Below are positions 11,872 through 17,670 of a stretch of 64,000 nt of DNA, piece by piece. Made by a program: the position numbers and the translations under genes. Under the pieces are notes generated by a model. That model was not told the DNA's origin and searched no databases. It saw only the letters and a list, made by a program, of their open reading frames with translations. Where the stretch lies: IMG/VR virus record IMGVR_UViG_3300033145_001047, positions 1 to 64,000 of that record. The stretch is one strand, 5' to 3'. The number at the start of each line of letters is the position of its first letter. Within the stretch, counting starts at the first letter, position 1. This DNA is from a virus.

Positions 11872-12690
11872 CTACGGGAACATCTGACCGTGCTCATTTA
11901 TATGTCGGCAAAAAATTGACGTGTCCAAAAGGAAGGGCCACTTCTTCTTCTGGAACTTCGGCCACCCGGCCCTCGCCAAGACTTTCTCCTTTATGATCCT
12001 GTCATTCCACCACAGATCCTCCGTCCCTACTTTCGTATTGTAGCGGCCTTGCTCAGGATCATACCATGCTTTCCTCGGGGTCTCGAACACTCGACGGACC
12101 ACGACCGGCCCGGCGATTGTCTGCAGCGTGTAGACCTCCGACTCGTCGTACATCAGCTTGATTATCGAGCCGTGAATGAGACAGCACCCTAGCGGGATTC
12201 CATCGACCCACACCTTGTCCCCCTGTTCCCAGTCCATATAGCATGAGCTACCGCGCCCTCGGAACAACAGAGGCTCCGGGTGCGTTCCCTTGCAGTAGTA
12301 GAGACCGCTCACTATCGGGATATCTCCCTTGAGCATGTAGTCGTTAATCTTCAAGAACGTATCGGGGGGAAGGATAACGTCATGGTCGATAAAAAACAGC
12401 CACTCGAATTCCTGGTCGATGAAGTATTGGACGCACACGTTCCGCGCATCGGCAACAGCCCATCCCATCGGACTATACTGGTCCATGAACTGAAAGATAT
12501 CGCCCTGACTCCAGTTGCAGGGAATCACCTGTCCGAATCGAGCCATCATCCACTCGACGCGGACGAGCCCGGTCGTCGGCACGGCCATACATATACGTTT
12601 CTGCCACCCTTCCCACTCCGACGACTTCGGGACCCCCATATCCGGGATGTGCAGCGTCTTCGAGGACTTCTTAGTTTGTTTCTTCGACAC
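11872..12690 (-). CDS. Glycosyltransferase (GT-A/GT2-like)
   Basis: ARN...WLFFIDHDV (DxD), VSGLY, GCCLI and EDLW motifs. Confidence 0.85.
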   Translation of the reverse strand: MSKKQTKKSSKTLHIPDMGVPKSSEWEGWQKRICMAVPTTGLVRVEWMMARFGQVIPCNWSQGDIFQFMDQYSPMGWAVADARNVCVQYFIDQEFEWLFFIDHDVILPPDTFLKINDYMLKGDIPIVSGLYYCKGTHPEPLLFRGRGSSCYMDWEQGDKVWVDGIPLGCCLIHGSIIKLMYDESEVYTLQTIAGPVVVRRVFETPRKAWYDPEQGRYNTKVGTEDLWWNDRIIKEKVLARAGWPKFQKKKWPFLLDTSIFCRHINEHGQMFP

Positions 12691-13210
12691 GCGGCACCTC
12701 CTTCATCTTTTCCAGAATCACTTCCATGTTGCCGCCGAAGTTGTGAACATTTTTGACAGTCTTCCACGGCCTCGGCTTGTAGACGTTGAACAGCTCTCTA
12801 TTGGGCTGCGCCGTTGGATCGAAGTAAGCGATTGACGCCTCGTTCAGAGCGCAGCAATGGGAAGGGTCCTGCACATATCCGAAGCTGTTCCCATACGGAA
12901 AGCCGAGCCATAGCTGTCCGCCGACTTTCATGAGCCTCCACCACTCATTCATCACGCCCATGATCTTCTTCGGGCAGATATGCTCTATCAGGTGACTCGC
13001 CAGGATGGTGTGACAGCACTCGTCCGGCAGCGGGTAGGGTACGGTCTCGACGTCGTGAACGATGTCAACCCCATCGAGCGCCCTGATATCGAGGCCGACG
13101 AAATTTTCTTGTTTGTTTTCGCCACACCCCACGTCCAGCTTGATACCCTGATTGTGTTTTTTCAACAGGGCCAAGATATTTCTCGGCAGCTTGACCACCT
13201 TCTTTCTCAT
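12671..13210 (-). CDS. Class I SAM-dependent methyltransferase
   Basis: LDVGCG motif I, GLDI, ASHLIEH, EWWRLMKVGG, DPSH. Confidence 0.85.
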   Translation of the reverse strand: MRKKVVKLPRNILALLKKHNQGIKLDVGCGENKQENFVGLDIRALDGVDIVHDVETVPYPLPDECCHTILASHLIEHICPKKIMGVMNEWWRLMKVGGQLWLGFPYGNSFGYVQDPSHCCALNEASIAYFDPTAQPNRELFNVYKPRPWKTVKNVHNFGGNMEVILEKMKEVPRVEETN

Positions 13211-13974
13211 GATCTCCTTTCTTTCTTGGCGCTCATTTCTTTCTCGCCGTAGTCGATTATTCTCCTCAACAGCTCGGATACGGATATCCCCTTCTTGTTC
13301 GCAGTGCTGCGTAGGAATTTGACATTGTTTTCTGTAATGCTAATCATTCTTCTGACCATCTTTTCAGCGGTCTTTTTTAGCGTATATACAAATGACGATC
13401 TTTTTCGTTTGTGTTTTGTCATATCAATTTCACTTGCCTTGACTTCGTGTGTATCTATTCCCGCCAATGTTGGAAAGTTCAGGTTAGCAAACGCACCTCG
13501 CAACTCAATCGCCTTCATGTCTCGTGCTACAGCAGCTTCCTCTGGAGTATCAAATGCACCCAAACGGTGAATCTTGCCACAATGCACAATTTTTGCACGA
13601 TATCTATTGTTACACAGAAGCACACCAATATAACCGCTTTGGGAAGCTTTGTGTGCATGTAAATTGCGGTGATTTTCCAAAGATGTACACACCCTGAGAT
13701 TTATTTTCCGGTTATCTGTTGGGTCTCCATTGATGTGGTCTACCATCGCTGCAGGAAATCCTAATATCTGTTGTTGCATGAAAATTCTTACCGATCCTTT
13801 CCCGTCTTTTTTAAGTCTTCTTCGCCCTGCTCTGCCACAACCGGCATTTCCGTCAGAACAATAGTACCAATTATGCTTCAAAAGTTCTGGTGCCTCCGCA
13901 ATATCAACAAGAGCATATTTCCCTTGCGTTAGCGGAATCTTAGTATATTTGATATCGTTCTGCATTTCACCCAT
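13207..13974 (-). CDS. HNH endonuclease with AP2 DNA-binding domain
   Basis: IPLTQGKYALVD start, VDHINGDPTDNRKINLR (HNH), SGYIGV...LGAFDTPEEAAVARD...ANLNFP (AP2), RHH-like tail. Low GC relative to flanks. Confidence 0.9.
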   Translation of the reverse strand: MGEMQNDIKYTKIPLTQGKYALVDIAEAPELLKHNWYYCSDGNAGCGRAGRRRLKKDGKGSVRIFMQQQILGFPAAMVDHINGDPTDNRKINLRVCTSLENHRNLHAHKASQSGYIGVLLCNNRYRAKIVHCGKIHRLGAFDTPEEAAVARDMKAIELRGAFANLNFPTLAGIDTHEVKASEIDMTKHKRKRSSFVYTLKKTAEKMVRRMISITENNVKFLRSTANKKGISVSELLRRIIDYGEKEMSAKKERRS

Positions 13975-13975
13975 T

Positions 13976-14064
13976 AAAAAGACCCGCCGATCATCGGGAA
14001 GATGAACGCCAATAGGCGTGTTATCGGCGGGCTTTCAAACATGTTATAAGGCATTCATCCTCCC
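13976..14064 (-). promoter_or_regulatory. Attenuator-like leader with interleaved stems upstream of HNH-AP2
   Basis: A (14050-14064) pairs with A' (13996-14010). B (14023-14031) pairs with B' (13983-13991), which is followed by UCUUUUU. Confidence 0.55.
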
Positions 14065-14075
14065 AGTTCACAACA

Positions 14076-14104
14076 ATACTATACCAAGAATATACGTGCG
14101 TCAA
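14076..14104 (-). promoter_or_regulatory. sigma70-like promoter for HNH-AP2
   Basis: TTGACG followed by TATAGT (15 nt spacer) or TAGTAT (17 nt spacer). Confidence 0.5.
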
Positions 14105-14124
14105 GTCTTGAGGAAGGAGATGTG

Positions 14125-14802
14125 CTATTTTTTGCGCTTGGCCAGGAACAGCCGGGCAGCTTCCTTGTGCCCTCTGAGGGGAACTCCCAGTTCTTCGAGA
14201 TACCGCTTGACCTTGTTCTTGTGCCAGCCAAGCTCCTCCGCAATATGCCGGAACGATCTCCTCTCTTTGGTGTATTCCTTCTTTATCCAGACAGCGTCGC
14301 AATCATCGTACAAGTGCTTTCTCGGCTTCTTCGCCCGTGCGCCCTTCTTTCTTGCTTCAAGGGCTGCGGCGGTCATGGTGTATCTTCTTCTTTCGACATC
14401 TATCTTCTTTAGAGCGTAGAGGACAAGAGTGTGGTCGCATCCCAGCTCGGCTGCTATGTCAGTGACGCTTCTCTTCTTCCTGCCATACTCAGTCTTGAGC
14501 CAAGCCTTCTCATATAGCCGTGGATATTTTATCGCGCCATGTCTCCTGTTCAGATGTTCCTGACTTGACGCAAACAGTTCAAGATTCTCAAGTAAATTGT
14601 TCTCCTTGTTTTCGTCACGATGATGGACGACCTCTTTCTTTGTCAGAAGCCTTCCAATTTCCTTCTCCATCACTAGACGATGGTGCATTACCTTTCGCCC
14701 TGGGTGTGGATATCCGGACGGCTTGGTCACCATGATATAGCCGTCCTGCATGAGCTTGTAGCCCGTCAATGAATCGAGGTCGAGTTTCTTGATACCAAAC
14801 AT
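14125..14802 (-). CDS. Free-standing HNH endonuclease with tandem HTH repeats
   Basis: HRLVMEKEIGRLL...EVVHHRDENKENNLLENLEL (HNH_3-like), followed by two WL-x-x-EY...IA-x-ELG units. Confidence 0.9.
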   Translation of the reverse strand: MFGIKKLDLDSLTGYKLMQDGYIMVTKPSGYPHPGRKVMHHRLVMEKEIGRLLTKKEVVHHRDENKENNLLENLELFASSQEHLNRRHGAIKYPRLYEKAWLKTEYGRKKRSVTDIAAELGCDHTLVLYALKKIDVERRRYTMTAAALEARKKGARAKKPRKHLYDDCDAVWIKKEYTKERRSFRHIAEELGWHKNKVKRYLEELGVPLRGHKEAARLFLAKRKK

Positions 14803-14829
14803 GCCGTCCTCCCTTCTTTTCTTGTGGGT

Positions 14830-14858
14830 ATTATATCTAATCGTGAAGGGTGAAGCAA
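14830..14858 (-). promoter_or_regulatory. sigma70-like promoter for the HNH gene
   Basis: TTGCTT-17 nt-TATAAT. Confidence 0.65.
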
Positions 14859-14861
14859 TAG

Positions 14862-14894
14862 AAAAAGGGAAGGCTGTTCTCGGCCTTCCCTTTT
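14862..14894. terminator. Bidirectional rho-independent terminator ending the head operon
   Basis: AAAAGGGAAGGC-8 nt loop-GCCTTCCCTTTT, about 20 nt after the spliced gene's stop. Confidence 0.85.
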
Positions 14895-14913
14895 CAGTCT
14901 CATCTTCTCCGGT

Positions 14914-15861
14914 TCAACTGAACCTGAGCTGATACGTGGCGTTCCATAACTTGTTACTCTCGCTTAACGTACGTTACGCAGCGAGGGCGACATCATCTCT
15001 GTGTCGCTCTGCATGTCGCCATGCAGTTCGGACTGTCCCTTCAACTCCCATCGAGAGTGTCCCCCGTCCAGTCTCTACACCTTCCTCTGCATCCGCAAAG
15101 GCTTGGCTCGGGATTGTCTCCTCTCGGAGGTGTTCCCCGAATTTGAGGGATTTGCTTCTCACCGTCACCGGTGAGTGACGCAAACACTTTACGTTTTGGT
15201 TAGCAAGATTGTTACTCCCACCACGAGTGGTGAGGACGATGTCGTTTCCGCATCGTTCTACGAGTCGCCCCGCAGTTCGGACTGTCCCTTCAACTCCCTT
15301 ACGGAGTGTCCTCCATCCAGTCTCTACGCCTTCCCTGATTACTCTCAGGGCTTGGTTCGGGATTGTCTCCTTGACAGCAAGGAGGTGTTCCCCGACTTTG
15401 AAGGATACTTTGAGCAATGTCACCATTGCCCGGCGCCATAACCATAACGCCCACTGACTTGTGGCATACGTCGTTCCGCACAGAATCGTCCCGCCCGCGC
15501 TGGTGTTAGCCAGTGCCACGTTCTGAATCGTGCATGTTCCGCCCATGTCCGAACCGGCGAACTGGGCCGTGCACTGCAGCGTCTTCGAGGACACCGCTGT
15601 ATTCGTGCTCGTCACACGTGCGCCCGTCTCTCCTTCGAGGGACGTGCCCGCTGCTCCCGGAGCCGTTCCGGTTCCGATAGCCATGTGACTCACCTGTTTG
15701 CTACCGGCGACTGCCCCGAGGGAGCCGACGATGTAATCCTGGAAGCCGAGGTTCACCACGGTGTTCTCCCTCCAGCCAGAATCACCGACGATCTTCCCGG
15801 ACTTCTCGTCTACCATCTGTAGACGCAAGAAACCTTTGACCTTCAACATGTCACTATTCAC
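14914..15861 (-). CDS. Small virion structural protein (152 aa after splicing); exons 15861-15447, 15203-15191, 14944-14914
   Basis: Joining the exons (415+13+31 = 459 nt) gives ...TYATSQW-ASNQNV-NATYQLRFS*. The N-x-VVN-x-G...MAIGTG...TSL-x-x-E pattern is typical of small phage structural beta proteins. Confidence 0.85.
14945..15190 (-). mobile_element. Group I self-splicing intron 2 (246 nt, ORF-less)
   Basis: P AAAUUCGGGGAA, Q AAUCCCGAGCCAAG, R GUAGAGACUG, S GAAGGGACAGUCCG (P7 GACUG/CAGUC). The exon ends in U paired to G in P1, and the intron ends in G. Confidence 0.88.
15204..15446 (-). mobile_element. Group I self-splicing intron 1 (243 nt, ORF-less)
   Basis: Same P/Q/R/S core as intron 2. 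P1 GGCGU|UAU-GGUU-AUGGCGCC with U.G at the splice site. P10 UGGUUA pairs with 3' exon UAACCA. Terminal G. Confidence 0.9.
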
Positions 15862-16610
15862 TTTCTATCACCCCCTTCGGTGTTCATGAGTAGCTCTGTC
15901 TCCTTGACCTTCCGTCTGTTCTCGTACCGGACCAGGGTCCGTTCGAGAAAGGCCGAGCTGTACTTGAACCGGAGACGCTTCTCCGCTTCGCTTTCCAGCT
16001 CTTCATGTACCCGAGCTATACAGCCCTTCTTCGTCCCCCCTCCTACGTGGAGGACATCAGTCGTGTAGCAGTACCCGGTCTTCCACCAGTCCGACCACTC
16101 CAGCCTGGTGAAGAACTCGCGGTCCTCCCCCAGGTAGAACTTCGGGTCGAACGACCCGAGGTCAGCCAAGCATTTCCGGCGGACCATGCAGAAGGAAAGA
16201 CTTCCGAAGGTGGCCACTCCCGACTCGTCATGTACCCTCGCCTCTATGAGGCCGATGTGGTCGTCTATGACATAATTCCACATCTTGTCGACCCATTCCG
16301 GGTCCTGTACTTCGACGTCGCTGTCGATCATGGCCACCCACTCAGCCCGTCCTACCGCCAGGCCGCGCCGTCGTCCTTCGCCGACGCCGACGTTCTTCTG
16401 GCATGTGACCAGGTGCCCTACTACCTCACTGTCAAAGAGCCATTCCTTCGAGCCGTCCTTCGACTTCTGGTCGACGACGACAAGAGTATAGTGTCCCGCC
16501 GTTGTCTCCTGCACTGACCGGATACATCTCTCGACATACCCGGCGTTGTTGCAGTTCAAGATTAGGACGTCAATCGCGTCCGCTATTTTCGCCACTCTTC
16601 CGGCATCCAT
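15858..16610 (-). CDS. Glycosyltransferase family 2
   Basis: VLILNCN...VVVDQKSKDGS...WVAMIDSDV (DxD)...GEDREF...VLHVGG. Lies directly after the major capsid gene. Confidence 0.9.
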   Translation of the reverse strand: MDAGRVAKIADAIDVLILNCNNAGYVERCIRSVQETTAGHYTLVVVDQKSKDGSKEWLFDSEVVGHLVTCQKNVGVGEGRRRGLAVGRAEWVAMIDSDVEVQDPEWVDKMWNYVIDDHIGLIEARVHDESGVATFGSLSFCMVRRKCLADLGSFDPKFYLGEDREFFTRLEWSDWWKTGYCYTTDVLHVGGGTKKGCIARVHEELESEAEKRLRFKYSSAFLERTLVRYENRRKVKETELLMNTEGGDRK

Positions 16611-16643
16611 TCCAGGCCCTACGGCCCGATTATTCCAGGGAGA

Positions 16644-17606
16644 CTATGCTACCTGGAGGCTGTGTTTGATCGCGTCGATCTCTACGGTCGCGTCGGCTTC
16701 TTCCAGCTTGAAGTCGATACGCATGGTTATCGTCACTTCGACGATTCTTTTCCTGGGGACTCGCTCCATTTCCAGCATCACATCTCTGTGAACGCCATAG
16801 ATGAAGTTCTTCGGGTTAATCAGCAAACCCTTCGAGCCGTAGACCGTCGGCGTACCGGCATCCACGTCTTCCGTCAGTATTGCCGGGACCTTCACAACGT
16901 CTATGCCCTGGTACGTGGGCGTCTGTGCTTCGAGCAGGTAGCGGGTGAACGCTTCGGACACGCCCACGTCGGCCAGCTCAGAAATGTAGTCCAGTCTCGC
17001 CAGGTGGGAGACGTAGAATCGGAAGTTGTTTTCGTCGTCGATGTACTTCCCCGGCATCGACTGGTACGCGGTCTTGAGCACGTCCGGGCTCAGAGTCGCT
17101 TCGAGTGCATCGTAGACATTGCCCCCGGCGGTCGTCTGCTTGAACATTCCGTCCAAGACATCCAGGACGGTCCCACCTGTTCCGGCACTGTCTCCGTAGA
17201 GACTGAGCCAGTCCATGTCGAACGCGGCCTTCGCCTGGGTCAAGTTCATGATCGTATCCATGATACGACCGCCTTCGATTGAGTCCTCCAGGGCATCGTA
17301 TCCGATGTCCGTGGCGATTATGACCTCCTCGGCGGACAGGACGACTTTACTCGTCACCGGCTCCGTTATGGTCGTGTGCTCCGTACCCTGGGCCACCGGC
17401 TTCTGCAGCACTCGGGCCGAGTAGGTTATCTTGTCTATCTGTCGCTTGTTCGCGGTCATTGCCTCACGGCGATACTCCGCTATCAGGACAGACTTGTCGA
17501 TGATTCCGCGCACGAATGAGCCAGCTTGTTCGGGGTTCAGGAGTCCCCCGTTCGCCAGGTCGCTCGTATCAAACGCTTTCTCAAGAACTTCGTCTATCGT
17601 CTTCAT
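16644..17606 (-). CDS. Major capsid protein (HK97 fold, PBSX XkdG-like)
   Basis: KAFDTSDLANGGLLNPEQA-x-x-F N-terminus, LEDSIEG, NPKNFIYG, and position after the protease and scaffold. Start reassigned to the ATG at 17606 (GGAGG RBS). Confidence 0.9.
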   Translation of the reverse strand: MKTIDEVLEKAFDTSDLANGGLLNPEQAGSFVRGIIDKSVLIAEYRREAMTANKRQIDKITYSARVLQKPVAQGTEHTTITEPVTSKVVLSAEEVIIATDIGYDALEDSIEGGRIMDTIMNLTQAKAAFDMDWLSLYGDSAGTGGTVLDVLDGMFKQTTAGGNVYDALEATLSPDVLKTAYQSMPGKYIDDENNFRFYVSHLARLDYISELADVGVSEAFTRYLLEAQTPTYQGIDVVKVPAILTEDVDAGTPTVYGSKGLLINPKNFIYGVHRDVMLEMERVPRKRIVEVTITMRIDFKLEEADATVEIDAIKHSLQVA

Positions 17607-17670
17607 TATGTTTCTGTCACCTCCCCTCAGTTTGCGATAGCACTTCCAGCACAACAGTATCCCGGATGGA

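What the first reader, a model, noticed from the sequence alone, without database searches (positions are those of the whole stretch)
14914..15861. Virion gene split by two tandem group I introns around a 13-nt micro-exon
Seen in sequence: two ~245 nt near-paralogous blocks (15446-15204 and 15190-14945) share TCGGGGAACACCTCC, GGAGACAATCCCGA, GTAGAGACTGGA, GGGAGTTGAAGGGACAGTCCGAACTGC and GAGTAACAA. Each follows an exon U and ends in G. Removing both joins TGG GCG T|CT AAC CAA AAC GT|G AAC GCC ACG TAT CAG CTC AGG TTC AGT TGA, giving W-A-S-N-Q-N-V-N-A-T-Y-Q-L-R-F-S*, just before a terminator. Established: these match group I P/Q/R/S elements, the U.G 5' splice site and the omega-G. The micro-exon C-UAACCA-AAACGU is almost fully used for pairing, with UAACCA forming P10 of intron 1 and AAACGU forming P1 of intron 2. 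Inference: the last 15 residues of a structural protein depend on two consecutive self-splicing events, which ORF callers miss. Multi-intron phage genes are known, but this spacing in a small virion gene is unusual.
Basis: partly seen in the sequence, partly recalled or inferred. Interest (0 to 1): 0.92.

Follow-up and report, generated by a model that had tools for sequence, protein, structure and literature searches.

The report
Two tandem self-splicing introns, phage gene
A small gene next to the capsid gene of an uncultured phage is interrupted near its end by two sister self-splicing (group I) introns only 13 bases apart, a real but not unprecedented arrangement that gene callers miss.

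Summary
Both blocks (15446-15204 and 15190-14945, minus strand) match the Rfam group I intron model (55.3 and 47.7 bits). Both keep all ten core helices, with 16 compensatory pair changes between them. Each has a guide sequence complementary to its own 5' exon and a 6-bp P10.

Removing both gives a 152-aa protein. Its last 15 residues are identical to the C-terminus of 84 of 120 listed intron-less homologs.

No RNA data could be obtained, so splicing itself is inferred.

Three corrections apply:
- P1 of intron 2 uses 4 exon bases, not 6.
- "Virion gene" rests on gene context only.
- The spacing is not unprecedented. Twort orf142 has a 23-nt exon, and mitochondria have exons down to 1 nt. Earlier notes of this scan report 3-13-nt exons in other phages.

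New context from related loci:
- The gene's last ~50 nt hold at least five intron insertion sites across related phages.
- The two window introns are sisters, which points to local duplication.
- Intron-bearing loci nearly always carry a free-standing endonuclease gene just downstream. The window has two, which suggests trans or collaborative homing.

The parts
15447..15861 (-). Exon 1 (GTG start; 138 codons plus the first base of the Ser codon). It ends in the U of the U.G pair of intron 1's P1.
   Evidence: Translation. 693 homologs at E<=1e-3. Junction 15447 is top-ranked of 19,990 combinations.
15204..15446 (-). Intron 1: ORF-less group I intron, 243 nt, at insertion site A (inside the Ser codon after ...SQWA). 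It is in frame and free of stop codons.
   Evidence: RF00028 47.7 bits, E 9.7e-11. All 10 helices paired. R1 core hit 192 bits. P1 is 5 exon bp + 3 intron bp and P10 is 6 bp. In-frame read-through shown.
15432..15439 (-). Internal guide sequence of intron 1 (intron nt 8-15). It pairs with the last 5 nt of exon 1. The P10 guide lies just 5' of it (intron nt 3-8).
15191..15203 (-). 13-nt micro-exon. It supplies codon positions 2-3 of Ser, then Asn, Gln, Asn, then positions 1-2 of Val. Bases 2-7 form P10 of intron 1 and bases 10-13 form the exon strand of P1 of intron 2.
   Evidence: Colinear with intron-less alleles at DNA level.
14945..15190 (-). Intron 2: ORF-less group I intron, 246 nt, at insertion site B (inside the Val codon).
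   Evidence: RF00028 55.3 bits, above gathering. R1 core hit 181.3 bits. P1 is 4 exon bp + 3 intron bp and P10 is 6 contiguous bp.
15178..15184 (-). Internal guide sequence of intron 2 (intron nt 7-13).
   Evidence: It can also pair 5 bp with the end of exon 1.
14914..14944 (-). Exon 3: last base of the Val codon, 9 codons, and the TGA stop.
14862..14895 (-). Intrinsic-terminator-like hairpin (13-bp stem followed by a T run), 19 nt after the stop codon.
14125..14802 (-). Free-standing HNH endonuclease gene 1 (HNH_3 plus HTH repeats). Candidate trans-acting homing enzyme.
   Evidence: PF13392 E 3.1e-09. phrog_7545 E 1.5e-25. Homologs occupy the same position in related loci.
13207..13974 (-). 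Free-standing HNH endonuclease gene 2 (HNH_3, phrog_99 type).
   Evidence: PF13392 E 1.5e-07. phrog_99 E 1.9e-33.

Best explanation
The gene at 15861-14914 (minus strand) encodes a conserved 152-aa protein of the capsid-proximal module of an uncultured tailed phage. Two ORF-less group I introns, 13 nt apart, interrupt its last 15 codons. Each intron folds into its own ribozyme and recognises its own 5' splice site through a U.G-containing P1 with its internal guide. Each aligns its 3' exon by a 6-bp P10 and is removed by the usual two transesterifications started by a free guanosine. The two P1/P10 contacts use different parts of the micro-exon (bases 2-7 and 10-13), so either intron can go first. 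Removing both restores the family's invariant C-terminus. These steps are inferred from sequence and comparison, not observed. The two introns are sister copies, so one most likely arose from the other by insertion at a nearby site with a similar ...CGU end (inference). The pair is probably kept and spread at the DNA level with the two free-standing HNH endonuclease genes that start about 110 nt downstream, by trans or collaborative homing. I give that last part roughly 0.45.
For: Covariance-model hits to RF00028 for both copies.

Under the canonical group I topology, with P3 and P7 crossing, 116 of 116 cells pair in 58 pairs across 10 helices, and 16 pairs changed on both sides between the two copies. 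With partners slid 1-3 columns, only 39-49% of cells pair and 0-2 pairs show double changes.

Across 56 related introns aligned to my core model, 95.1% of 1442 cells pair, 32 of 34 pairs show compensatory changes, and slid controls pair 37-49%. That alignment was fitted to the model.

The guide sequence covaries with the 5' exon across sites and loci: GGCGU with GCGCC, ACGU with GCGU, GUCCGU with GCGGAC, and CGACCU with GGGGUCG.

The spliced product's last 15 residues equal those of 84 of 120 listed homologs, including P0002 at 93% identity. Exons are colinear with intron-less alleles, with no extra bases.

The two introns are sisters with support 0.999 among the 24 best-scoring cores.

Under one uniform rule that excludes the window, an endonuclease gene lies downstream in 5 of 6 intron-bearing locus clusters against 15 of 58 intron-less ones (one-sided Fisher p 0.0096). 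The sixth, L111, has an EndoVII-like ORF by PHROGs.

Passages in PMC3984707 and PMC2790892 describe collaborative and trans homing of ORF-less or defunct introns by adjacent free-standing endonucleases.
Against: No RNA or in vitro evidence exists for any splicing step.

Intron 1 scores 2.3 bits under Rfam's gathering score.

Intron 1 has no in-frame stop codon. Ribosomes could therefore run from exon 1 through it, whereas the review describes an early in-frame stop as the common pattern, so splicing efficiency in vivo is uncertain.

The exon part of intron 2's P1 is only 4 bp, and its guide pairs 5 bp (two of them G.U) with the end of exon 1. Mis-splicing or exon skipping is therefore possible.

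For the homing part, 15-16 of 58 intron-less clusters also carry the endonuclease gene. No sequence difference in the target region separates endonuclease-carrying from endonuclease-free intron-less alleles. Counts are small and loci are related by descent. No cleavage site is known.
Confidence: 0.85

Rival explanations
1. Alternative splicing is part of the design. Besides the 152-aa protein, the pair yields a 138-aa form ending ...SQWA by exon skipping (exon 1 joined to exon 3 creates an immediate stop). Retaining intron 1 yields a 233-aa form with the normal tail. This does not exclude the main reading.
For: Computed products are 138 aa (exon-skipped), 233 aa with the correct tail (only intron 2 removed, because intron 1 is 243 nt, in frame and stop-free), 214 aa (only intron 1 removed) and 295 aa (unspliced). 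Intron 2's guide pairs 5 bp with the end of exon 1 against 4 bp with its own site. Exon skipping is reported for the similar Twort introns 2 and 3 around a 23-nt exon, and for a Bastillevirinae phage (SIOphi) gene (passages in PMC10136302, and PMC11878797). P0048 is another homolog in which a whole site-B intron is read through in frame to the normal tail.
Against: 104 of 120 homologs have the plain contiguous tail and no long or short isoform signal. An open frame in one 243-nt intron is expected by chance now and then in a family with dozens of introns. No RNA or protein data exist.
Confidence: 0.15
2. One or both introns are dead relics and the gene is a pseudogene, or it makes only a C-terminally altered protein.
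For: There is no direct evidence of splicing. Intron 1 is under Rfam's gathering score. At least one related intron (the second in L072) lacks a terminal G at the expected place, so decay does occur in this family.
Against: Every helix is intact in both copies, and differences between the copies are concentrated in compensatory pairs. P1, P10, the U before the 5' splice site and the terminal G are all in place. The 13-nt and 31-nt downstream exons still encode the family tail 15 of 15 residues, in frame, ending at a stop followed by a terminator. That would not be maintained if they were no longer expressed.
Confidence: 0.05
3. The tandem repeat is an assembly artefact, for example a collapsed or duplicated intron from mixed strains.
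For: The source is a metagenome-assembled virus genome.
Against: The copies are only 82% identical and have different guide sequences, each fitted to its own exon. The 13 nt between them are exactly the missing codons. Both insertion sites are independently occupied in other contigs and proteins: site A in 2 and site B in 8 of 120 listed homologs. The genome is complete with terminal repeats.
Confidence: 0.02

Closest known systems
Staphylococcus phage Twort orf142 (three group I introns; introns 2 and 3 highly similar, flanking a 23-nt exon; exon skipping)
   Same: A small late or structural-module phage gene with several ORF-less group I introns. Two paralogous introns flank a very short exon. 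Exon skipping is mechanistically possible. [quoted passage not shown]
   Different: The host gene is unrelated: tblastn of P0002 against 50,697 phage records found no match. The window has two introns rather than three and a 13-nt exon rather than 23. Twort's are stated to be subgroup IA2. The window introns have a single unpaired base between P3 and P8 in my hand-drawn structure, so by my recollection of the IA definition (extra P7.1/P7.2 helices there) they do not look IA. I did not test the subgroup. The original paper (PMC22036) is not held.
Collaborative homing (an ORF-less intron plus a free-standing endonuclease that cuts at the intron insertion site; two phage systems, including cyanophage psbA/F-CphI)
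   Same: ORF-less introns with free-standing endonuclease genes immediately adjacent, and co-occurrence across related genomes. The concept is taken from passages of PMC3984707, and the F-CphI paper was seen only in a search listing (PMC6083498).
   Different: Here there are two introns, two HNH genes and at least five insertion sites. The cleavage specificity is unknown. F-CphI is an Endo VII-type enzyme according to the title of that listing, whereas these are HNH_3 proteins.
T4 mobE / nrdB intron trans homing
   Same: An adjacent free-standing HNH enzyme can carry a non-mobile intron along by co-conversion without cutting at the insertion site, provided the two lie within recombination distance (passages of PMC2790892). 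In the window the nearer HNH gene starts about 110 nt after the stop codon.
   Different: Not tested here. The T4 intron carries a defunct endonuclease ORF, whereas the window introns have none.
Mitochondrial mini-exons and the placozoan cox1 1-nt exon between two group IB introns; Coxiella 23S rRNA 34-nt exon
   Same: [quoted passage not shown] Exons under about 4 codons 'occur regularly' in mitochondrial genes (PMC10352661 passages). A 1-nt exon is documented in placozoan cox1 (PMC5436844 passages). The Coxiella 34-nt exon is cited in PMC10136302.
   Different: Those are organellar or bacterial rRNA settings rather than a phage protein gene, and the introns are not sister copies of each other.

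Membership tests
Group I intron (Rfam RF00028) | Covariance-model match at or above the curated gathering score | tested here: met
   Intron 2 scores 55.3 bits against a gathering score of 50. Intron 1 scores 47.7 bits, just under gathering, with E 9.7e-11. So the feature is strictly met for intron 2 and nearly met for intron 1.
Group I intron (Rfam RF00028) | Conserved core P3-P9, with P3 and P7 crossing, kept by compensatory change | tested here: met
   58 pairs in 10 helices, 116 of 116 cells paired, and 16 pairs changed on both sides. Slid controls pair 39-49%. Family-wide, 95.1% of cells pair and 32 of 34 pairs are compensatory (that alignment was fitted to the model).
Group I intron (Rfam RF00028) | 5' splice site after a U in a U.G pair of P1 formed with an internal guide sequence | tested here: met
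   Intron 1 has 5 exon bp + 3 intron bp and intron 2 has 4 + 3. The guide covaries with the exon across sites and loci.
Group I intron (Rfam RF00028) | Terminal G at the 3' end and P10 with the 3' exon | tested here: met
   Both introns end in G. P10 is 6 bp for each.
Group I intron (Rfam RF00028) | Exon ligation restores the uninterrupted gene | tested here: met
   The spliced tail equals the C-terminus of 84 of 120 listed homologs. The junction set ranks first of 19,990.
Group I intron (Rfam RF00028) | Guanosine-initiated self-splicing activity | not testable with these tools
   No sequencing run was listed. This needs in vitro transcription with GTP and Mg2+.
Collaborative / trans homing system | The intron lacks its own endonuclease ORF, and a free-standing endonuclease gene lies within recombination distance | tested here: met
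   The introns are 243 and 246 nt and have no ORF of their own. HNH_3 genes lie at 14125-14802 and 13207-13974.
Collaborative / trans homing system | The endonuclease cuts or nicks intron-less alleles at or near the intron insertion site | not testable with these tools
   Needs a cleavage assay. Comparing the target-region DNA of endonuclease-carrying and endonuclease-free intron-less alleles showed no discriminating pattern.
Collaborative / trans homing system | Intron and endonuclease gene co-occur across genomes | tested here: inconclusive
   5 of 6 intron-bearing against 15 of 58 intron-less clusters (p 0.0096). Counting L090, which dropped out at clustering, as a further positive intron-less locus gives 16 of 58 (p 0.012). 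Also counting L111's EndoVII-like ORF gives 6 of 6 (p 0.001). Numbers are small, loci are related by descent, and many intron-less loci have the gene too.
Twort orf142-type multi-intron virion gene | Host gene homologous to Twort orf142 (tail tube) | tested here: not met
   tblastn of P0002 against the phage collection found no match at E<=1e-3. The family is phrog_5417, of unknown function. The resemblance is in arrangement, not in the gene.
Virion structural protein | Homology to a known structural family, or detection in virions | tested here: inconclusive
   No Pfam family. The best PDB profile hit is a phage decoration protein at E 0.17. Fibre-family hints are faint: PF12604 in 4 of 20 members at E>=0.031 and phrog_4176 in 3 of 20. 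Atlas neighbours are uncharacterised phage clusters.

The most novel reading that the evidence does not exclude
The invariant 3' end of this gene is a contested target. Free-standing HNH/EndoVII-type homing endonucleases that settle just downstream recognise it. ORF-less introns of one lineage then multiply locally by guide-directed (reverse-splicing-like) insertion at nearby ...CGU or ...CCU sites. They are retained because each insertion both rides along with the endonuclease gene by co-conversion and breaks a recognition site, which protects the carrier genome. On this reading the window, with two sister introns and two different HNH genes, is a doubled collaborative-homing unit, and the five insertion sites within about 50 nt record repeated rounds of this conflict.
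Probability: 0.25. Interest if true: 0.7.

Novelty: new member of a known kind. Interest (0 to 1): 0.45.

Why it matters
In practice, ORF callers mis-annotate this gene. The window's own ORF runs 295 aa through both introns, and 16 of 120 listed database homologs are intron read-through artefacts. Phage protein catalogues therefore contain false "long forms" of this family.

Biologically, the locus offers a compact natural test bed. Two near-identical ribozymes must each pick their own splice sites on a 13-nt exon. An exon-skipping outcome is easy to score because it creates an immediate stop. A comparative series of related phages has 0, 1 or 2 introns at five sites, with and without adjacent free-standing endonucleases. 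That makes local intron duplication, guide re-targeting and trans or collaborative homing directly testable with synthetic constructs. It does not establish a new class of element.

Tried and rejected
**RNA evidence.** The look-up of sequencing runs on 14850-15900 listed no run and no RNA holder.

**Closest alleles at DNA level.** I therefore could not see whether the two other site-A proteins also carry a site-B intron. I used intron-less loci from the search for related loci instead.

**Protein fold.** The PDB profile search gave only E 0.17 to a phage decoration protein. I rejected that as evidence and kept it as a lead.

**GenBank phages.** No DNA match and no protein match.

**Window intron core.** An exact 23-nt stretch of it has no match elsewhere in IMG/VR.

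**Immunity substitutions.** I looked for substitutions in endonuclease-carrying intron-less alleles. Synonymous sites vary freely in both groups and there is no pattern.

**RNAalifold on the two copies.** It mispaired the guide sequence with a distant segment and missed P3. I replaced that structure with the canonical topology.

**First association counts.** Searches used unequal criteria and incomplete de-duplication. The uniform rule supersedes them.

**Junctions in other loci.**
- L072's second intron has no terminal G where the protein alignment needs one, so it may be decayed or mis-mapped by me.
- L101's second intron fits a junction 2 nt upstream of site B.
- L066's junction fell outside my automatic search range and was mapped by hand.
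- The roughly 10-nt and 25-nt exons in L126 are hand-mapped and not validated against intron-less homologs.

**Intron subgroup.** IA, IC3 and so on were not tested because no subgroup models were available.

**Literature.** Searches listed nothing on this gene family or hotspot, but I read only listings plus the passages cited. Supplementary files were not opened. The size of the phiNIT1 'small exon' (PMC11878797) may be in them.
Full report
**1. What is in the sequence**

The minus strand holds a GTG-initiated frame from 15861. It encodes 138 residues with strong homologs, then runs on for 295 aa in total without a stop. Two blocks follow the 138th codon: 243 nt (15446-15204) and 246 nt (15190-14945).

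Rfam's group I intron model matches both blocks. The match at 15009-15200 scores 55.3 bits, above the gathering score of 50, and is the only gathering-level hit in the 64-kb window. The match at 15258-15456 scores 47.7 bits with E 9.7e-11.

The window is part of a complete 86,167-bp IMG/VR virus genome with direct terminal repeats. These are its only two RF00028 matches. A terminator-like hairpin (13-bp stem followed by a T run) lies at 14895-14862, just after the proposed stop.

**2. Are the proposed exons right?**

Searching with exon 1 alone returned 693 proteins at E<=1e-3 among 723 candidates. Most are 150-156 aa long.

The spliced CDS, computed from coordinates, is 459 nt and 152 aa. Its last 15 residues are identical to the C-terminus of 84 of the 120 listed homologs. 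After correcting my regular expression by eye, 104 of 120 have an intact tail of this type.

As an unbiased test I enumerated every combination of a 5' junction after T and a 3' junction after G around both blocks, 19,990 combinations in all. I scored each spliced translation against an HMM of intron-less homologs.

Within +-3 nt, intron 1's junctions are the only ones that give the family tail. Intron 2 has four synonymous options. By reading the sequence, only the proposed one has a U before the 5' site and a terminal G.

At DNA level the three exon pieces are colinear with intron-less alleles and have no extra bases.

**3. Are they working ribozymes?**

I wrote the canonical topology by hand: P2, P3, P4, P5, P6, P7 crossing P3, P8, P9, P9.1 and P9.2.

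- Between the two copies, 116 of 116 cells pair in 58 pairs, and 16 pairs changed on both sides. With partners slid by 1-3 columns, only 39-49% of cells pair and 0-2 pairs show double changes.
- By reading the alignment and structure, P2 and P9 are both capped by GNRA-type tetraloops.
- A covariance model of the 156-nt core finds only these two copies in the window (192 and 181 bits). It finds 54 further matches in the 25 fetched loci that I gave it.
- On that alignment, which was fitted to the model, 95.1% of 1442 cells pair and 32 of 34 pairs show compensatory changes. Slid controls pair 37-49%.

Splice-site recognition is also in place:

| Feature | Intron 1 | Intron 2 |
|---|---|---|
| P1, exon part | 5 bp | 4 bp |
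| P1, intron part | 3 bp | 3 bp |
| P10 | micro-exon bases 2-7, 6 bp | 6 contiguous bp with exon 3 |

About 10 of the 13 micro-exon bases take part in P10 or P1, in two segments that do not overlap, so neither intron has to wait for the other.

Across related introns the guide changes with the exon. This is the strongest comparative sign that these splice sites are used:

| Intron | 5' exon end | Guide |
|---|---|---|
| window intron 1 (site A) | GGCGU | GCGCC |
| window intron 2, L059 (site B) | ACGU | GCGU |
| L098, L045 (site B, diverged host gene) | GUCCGU | GCGGAC |
| L017 (site C) | CGACCU | GGGGUCG |

No RNA data were obtainable, so catalysis itself remains inferred.

**4. Wider picture from related loci**

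I fetched 22 and 30 loci from IMG/VR (largely overlapping sets) and 72 from metagenomes. Introns of the same lineage interrupt the same gene in L017/L029 (one contig), L045, L056, L059, L066, L072 (two introns), L098, L101 (two introns) and L111.

Mapping junctions by hand and by the HMM scan places them at five or more sites within about 50 nt of the 3' end:

| Site | Position | Where seen |
|---|---|---|
| D | Tyr/Cys codon after GTT | L072, L101 |
| A | Ser codon | window intron 1 |
| B | Val codon | window intron 2, L059, L066, L098, L045; L101 is shifted by 2 nt |
| C' | one codon before site C | L111 |
| C | Tyr codon | L017, L056, L072 |

Among the 120 listed proteins, 16 are read-through into an intron: 8 at site B, 5 at C, 2 at A and 1 at D. 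The internal exons in the other double-intron loci are 42 nt (L072) and about 32-34 nt (L101, depending on the junction), so the window's 13 nt is the shortest in this gene.

In a tree of the 24 best-scoring cores the two window introns are sisters (support 0.999). The same holds for L072's pair (0.929) and L128's three (1.0). Introns in this lineage therefore tend to multiply locally. Sites A, B and D all end in ...CGU, which fits guide-directed ectopic insertion; that is an inference. The window introns' GC content (0.54) is close to the window's (0.566).

**5. The endonuclease link**

Gene order is conserved: capsid-like gene (phrog_1623), GT2 glycosyltransferase, this gene, methyltransferase, second glycosyltransferase. 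In most intron-less loci this gene is followed directly by the methyltransferase. The window has two free-standing HNH_3 genes inserted there.

All 8 intron-bearing loci with readable downstream sequence have an endonuclease-type ORF in that position. These are HNH_3, HNH/EndoVII-like, or partial N-termini of an HNH PHROG. L056 and L072 had too little downstream sequence to judge.

I then applied one uniform rule: clusters at >=97% identity, at least 300 nt downstream, tblastn with a panel of endonucleases, self-queries excluded and the window excluded.

- 5 of 6 intron-bearing clusters have an endonuclease hit, against 15 of 58 intron-less clusters (one-sided Fisher p 0.0096).
- Counting L090, which dropped out at the clustering step, as a further positive intron-less locus gives 16 of 58 and p 0.012.
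- Also counting L111's EndoVII-like ORF gives 6 of 6 and p 0.001.

This fits trans or collaborative homing as described in PMC3984707 and PMC2790892 (passages). It is not proof. The endonuclease gene also occurs without introns, and I found no immunity-type substitutions in the target region.

**6. Possible alternative products**

- Joining exon 1 directly to exon 3 creates an immediate stop and a 138-aa protein.
- Removing only intron 2 gives 233 aa with the right tail, because intron 1 is 81 in-frame, stop-free codons.
- The unspliced RNA reads 295 aa.
- Intron 2's guide pairs 5 bp with the end of exon 1, so Twort-like exon skipping is conceivable.

**7. What the protein is**

Its function is unknown.

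- phrog_5417 (unknown function) matches 18 of 20 family members, and there is no Pfam family.
- There are only faint fibre or decoration hints.
- GenBank phages hold no homolog.

"Virion gene" is a reasonable guess from gene context and nothing more.

**8. Comparison with what is known**

- Twort orf142 has three group I introns. Two similar ones flank a 23-nt exon, and exon skipping is reported there. It was later assigned as a tail tube gene (passages).
- Coxiella 23S rRNA has a 34-nt exon between two introns.
- Bastillevirinae genes carry two or three introns, including a "small exon".
- Mitochondrial exons under about 4 codons are routine, and a 1-nt exon lies between two group IB introns in placozoan cox1.
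- In my own data, a major-head-protein gene in L126 carries 9 core hits of this lineage in about 4 kb. By hand-mapping, two of its exons are about 10 and 25 nt.
- Earlier notes of this scan, which I did not check, report 3-, 4-, 9-, 12- and 13-nt exons between tandem group I introns in other phages.

The arrangement is therefore a new, well-supported member of a known kind. The added value lies in the comparative series, the sister relationship of the two introns and the endonuclease association, not in the 13-nt spacing itself.

**9. Verdict**

My confidence that both introns splice to give the 152-aa protein is 0.85, and that they are mobilised with the downstream HNH genes about 0.45. Interest is 0.45.

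Noticed in passing
L126:1100-5400 (minus strand; IMG/VR contig of 19,018 nt): A major-head-protein gene (phrog_617/752 fragments) carries 9 core hits of the same intron lineage in about 4 kb, and some of the introns hold endonuclease ORFs (phrog_13076, HNH). A glycosyltransferase follows it, as in the window's module. By hand-mapping, two adjacent intron pairs leave exons of only about 10 and 25 nt.
   Followed up: partly
window 13207-14802 (minus strand): Two different free-standing HNH_3 endonuclease genes sit between the intron-split gene and the methyltransferase. Most related intron-less loci have nothing there. Homologs of the first occur at the same spot in related phages. A homolog of the second was seen only in L136, in another context.
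   Followed up: partly
window 15204-15446 (minus strand); also protein P0048: Intron 1 is exactly 81 codons long, in frame and stop-free, so retaining it would give a 233-aa protein with the normal tail. P0048 (231 aa) is a second family member in which a whole site-B intron is read through in frame to the normal tail.
   Followed up: partly
window 11872-17654 and about 60 related loci: The block capsid-like gene, GT2 glycosyltransferase, 152-aa protein, SAM-methyltransferase, second glycosyltransferase-like gene is conserved across phages whose 152-aa protein is only 45-85% identical. The small protein may be tied functionally to the sugar-modifying genes around it.
   Followed up: no
L128:7017-9580, L135:2372-5430, L125:220-3695: Other uncultured-phage loci with 3-5 group I intron cores of this lineage in one stretch. 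L128 has near-identical copies whose cores lie 105 nt apart.
   Followed up: no
L072:1703-1942: The second intron of this double-intron allele has no G where the protein alignment requires the 3' splice site. It may be a decaying intron or may use an unusual 3' end.
   Followed up: no
L045:1010-1201: A second group I intron core (52.8 bits with my model) lies about 5 kb upstream of the target gene in this contig, in another gene that I did not identify.
   Followed up: no
protein P0070 (223 aa, site-A read-through): The start of its intron read-through contains a peptide (KNQNA) that resembles the exon peptide normally found just downstream of the insertion site. This may be a copy of target-site sequence inside the intron's P1 region.
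   Followed up: no
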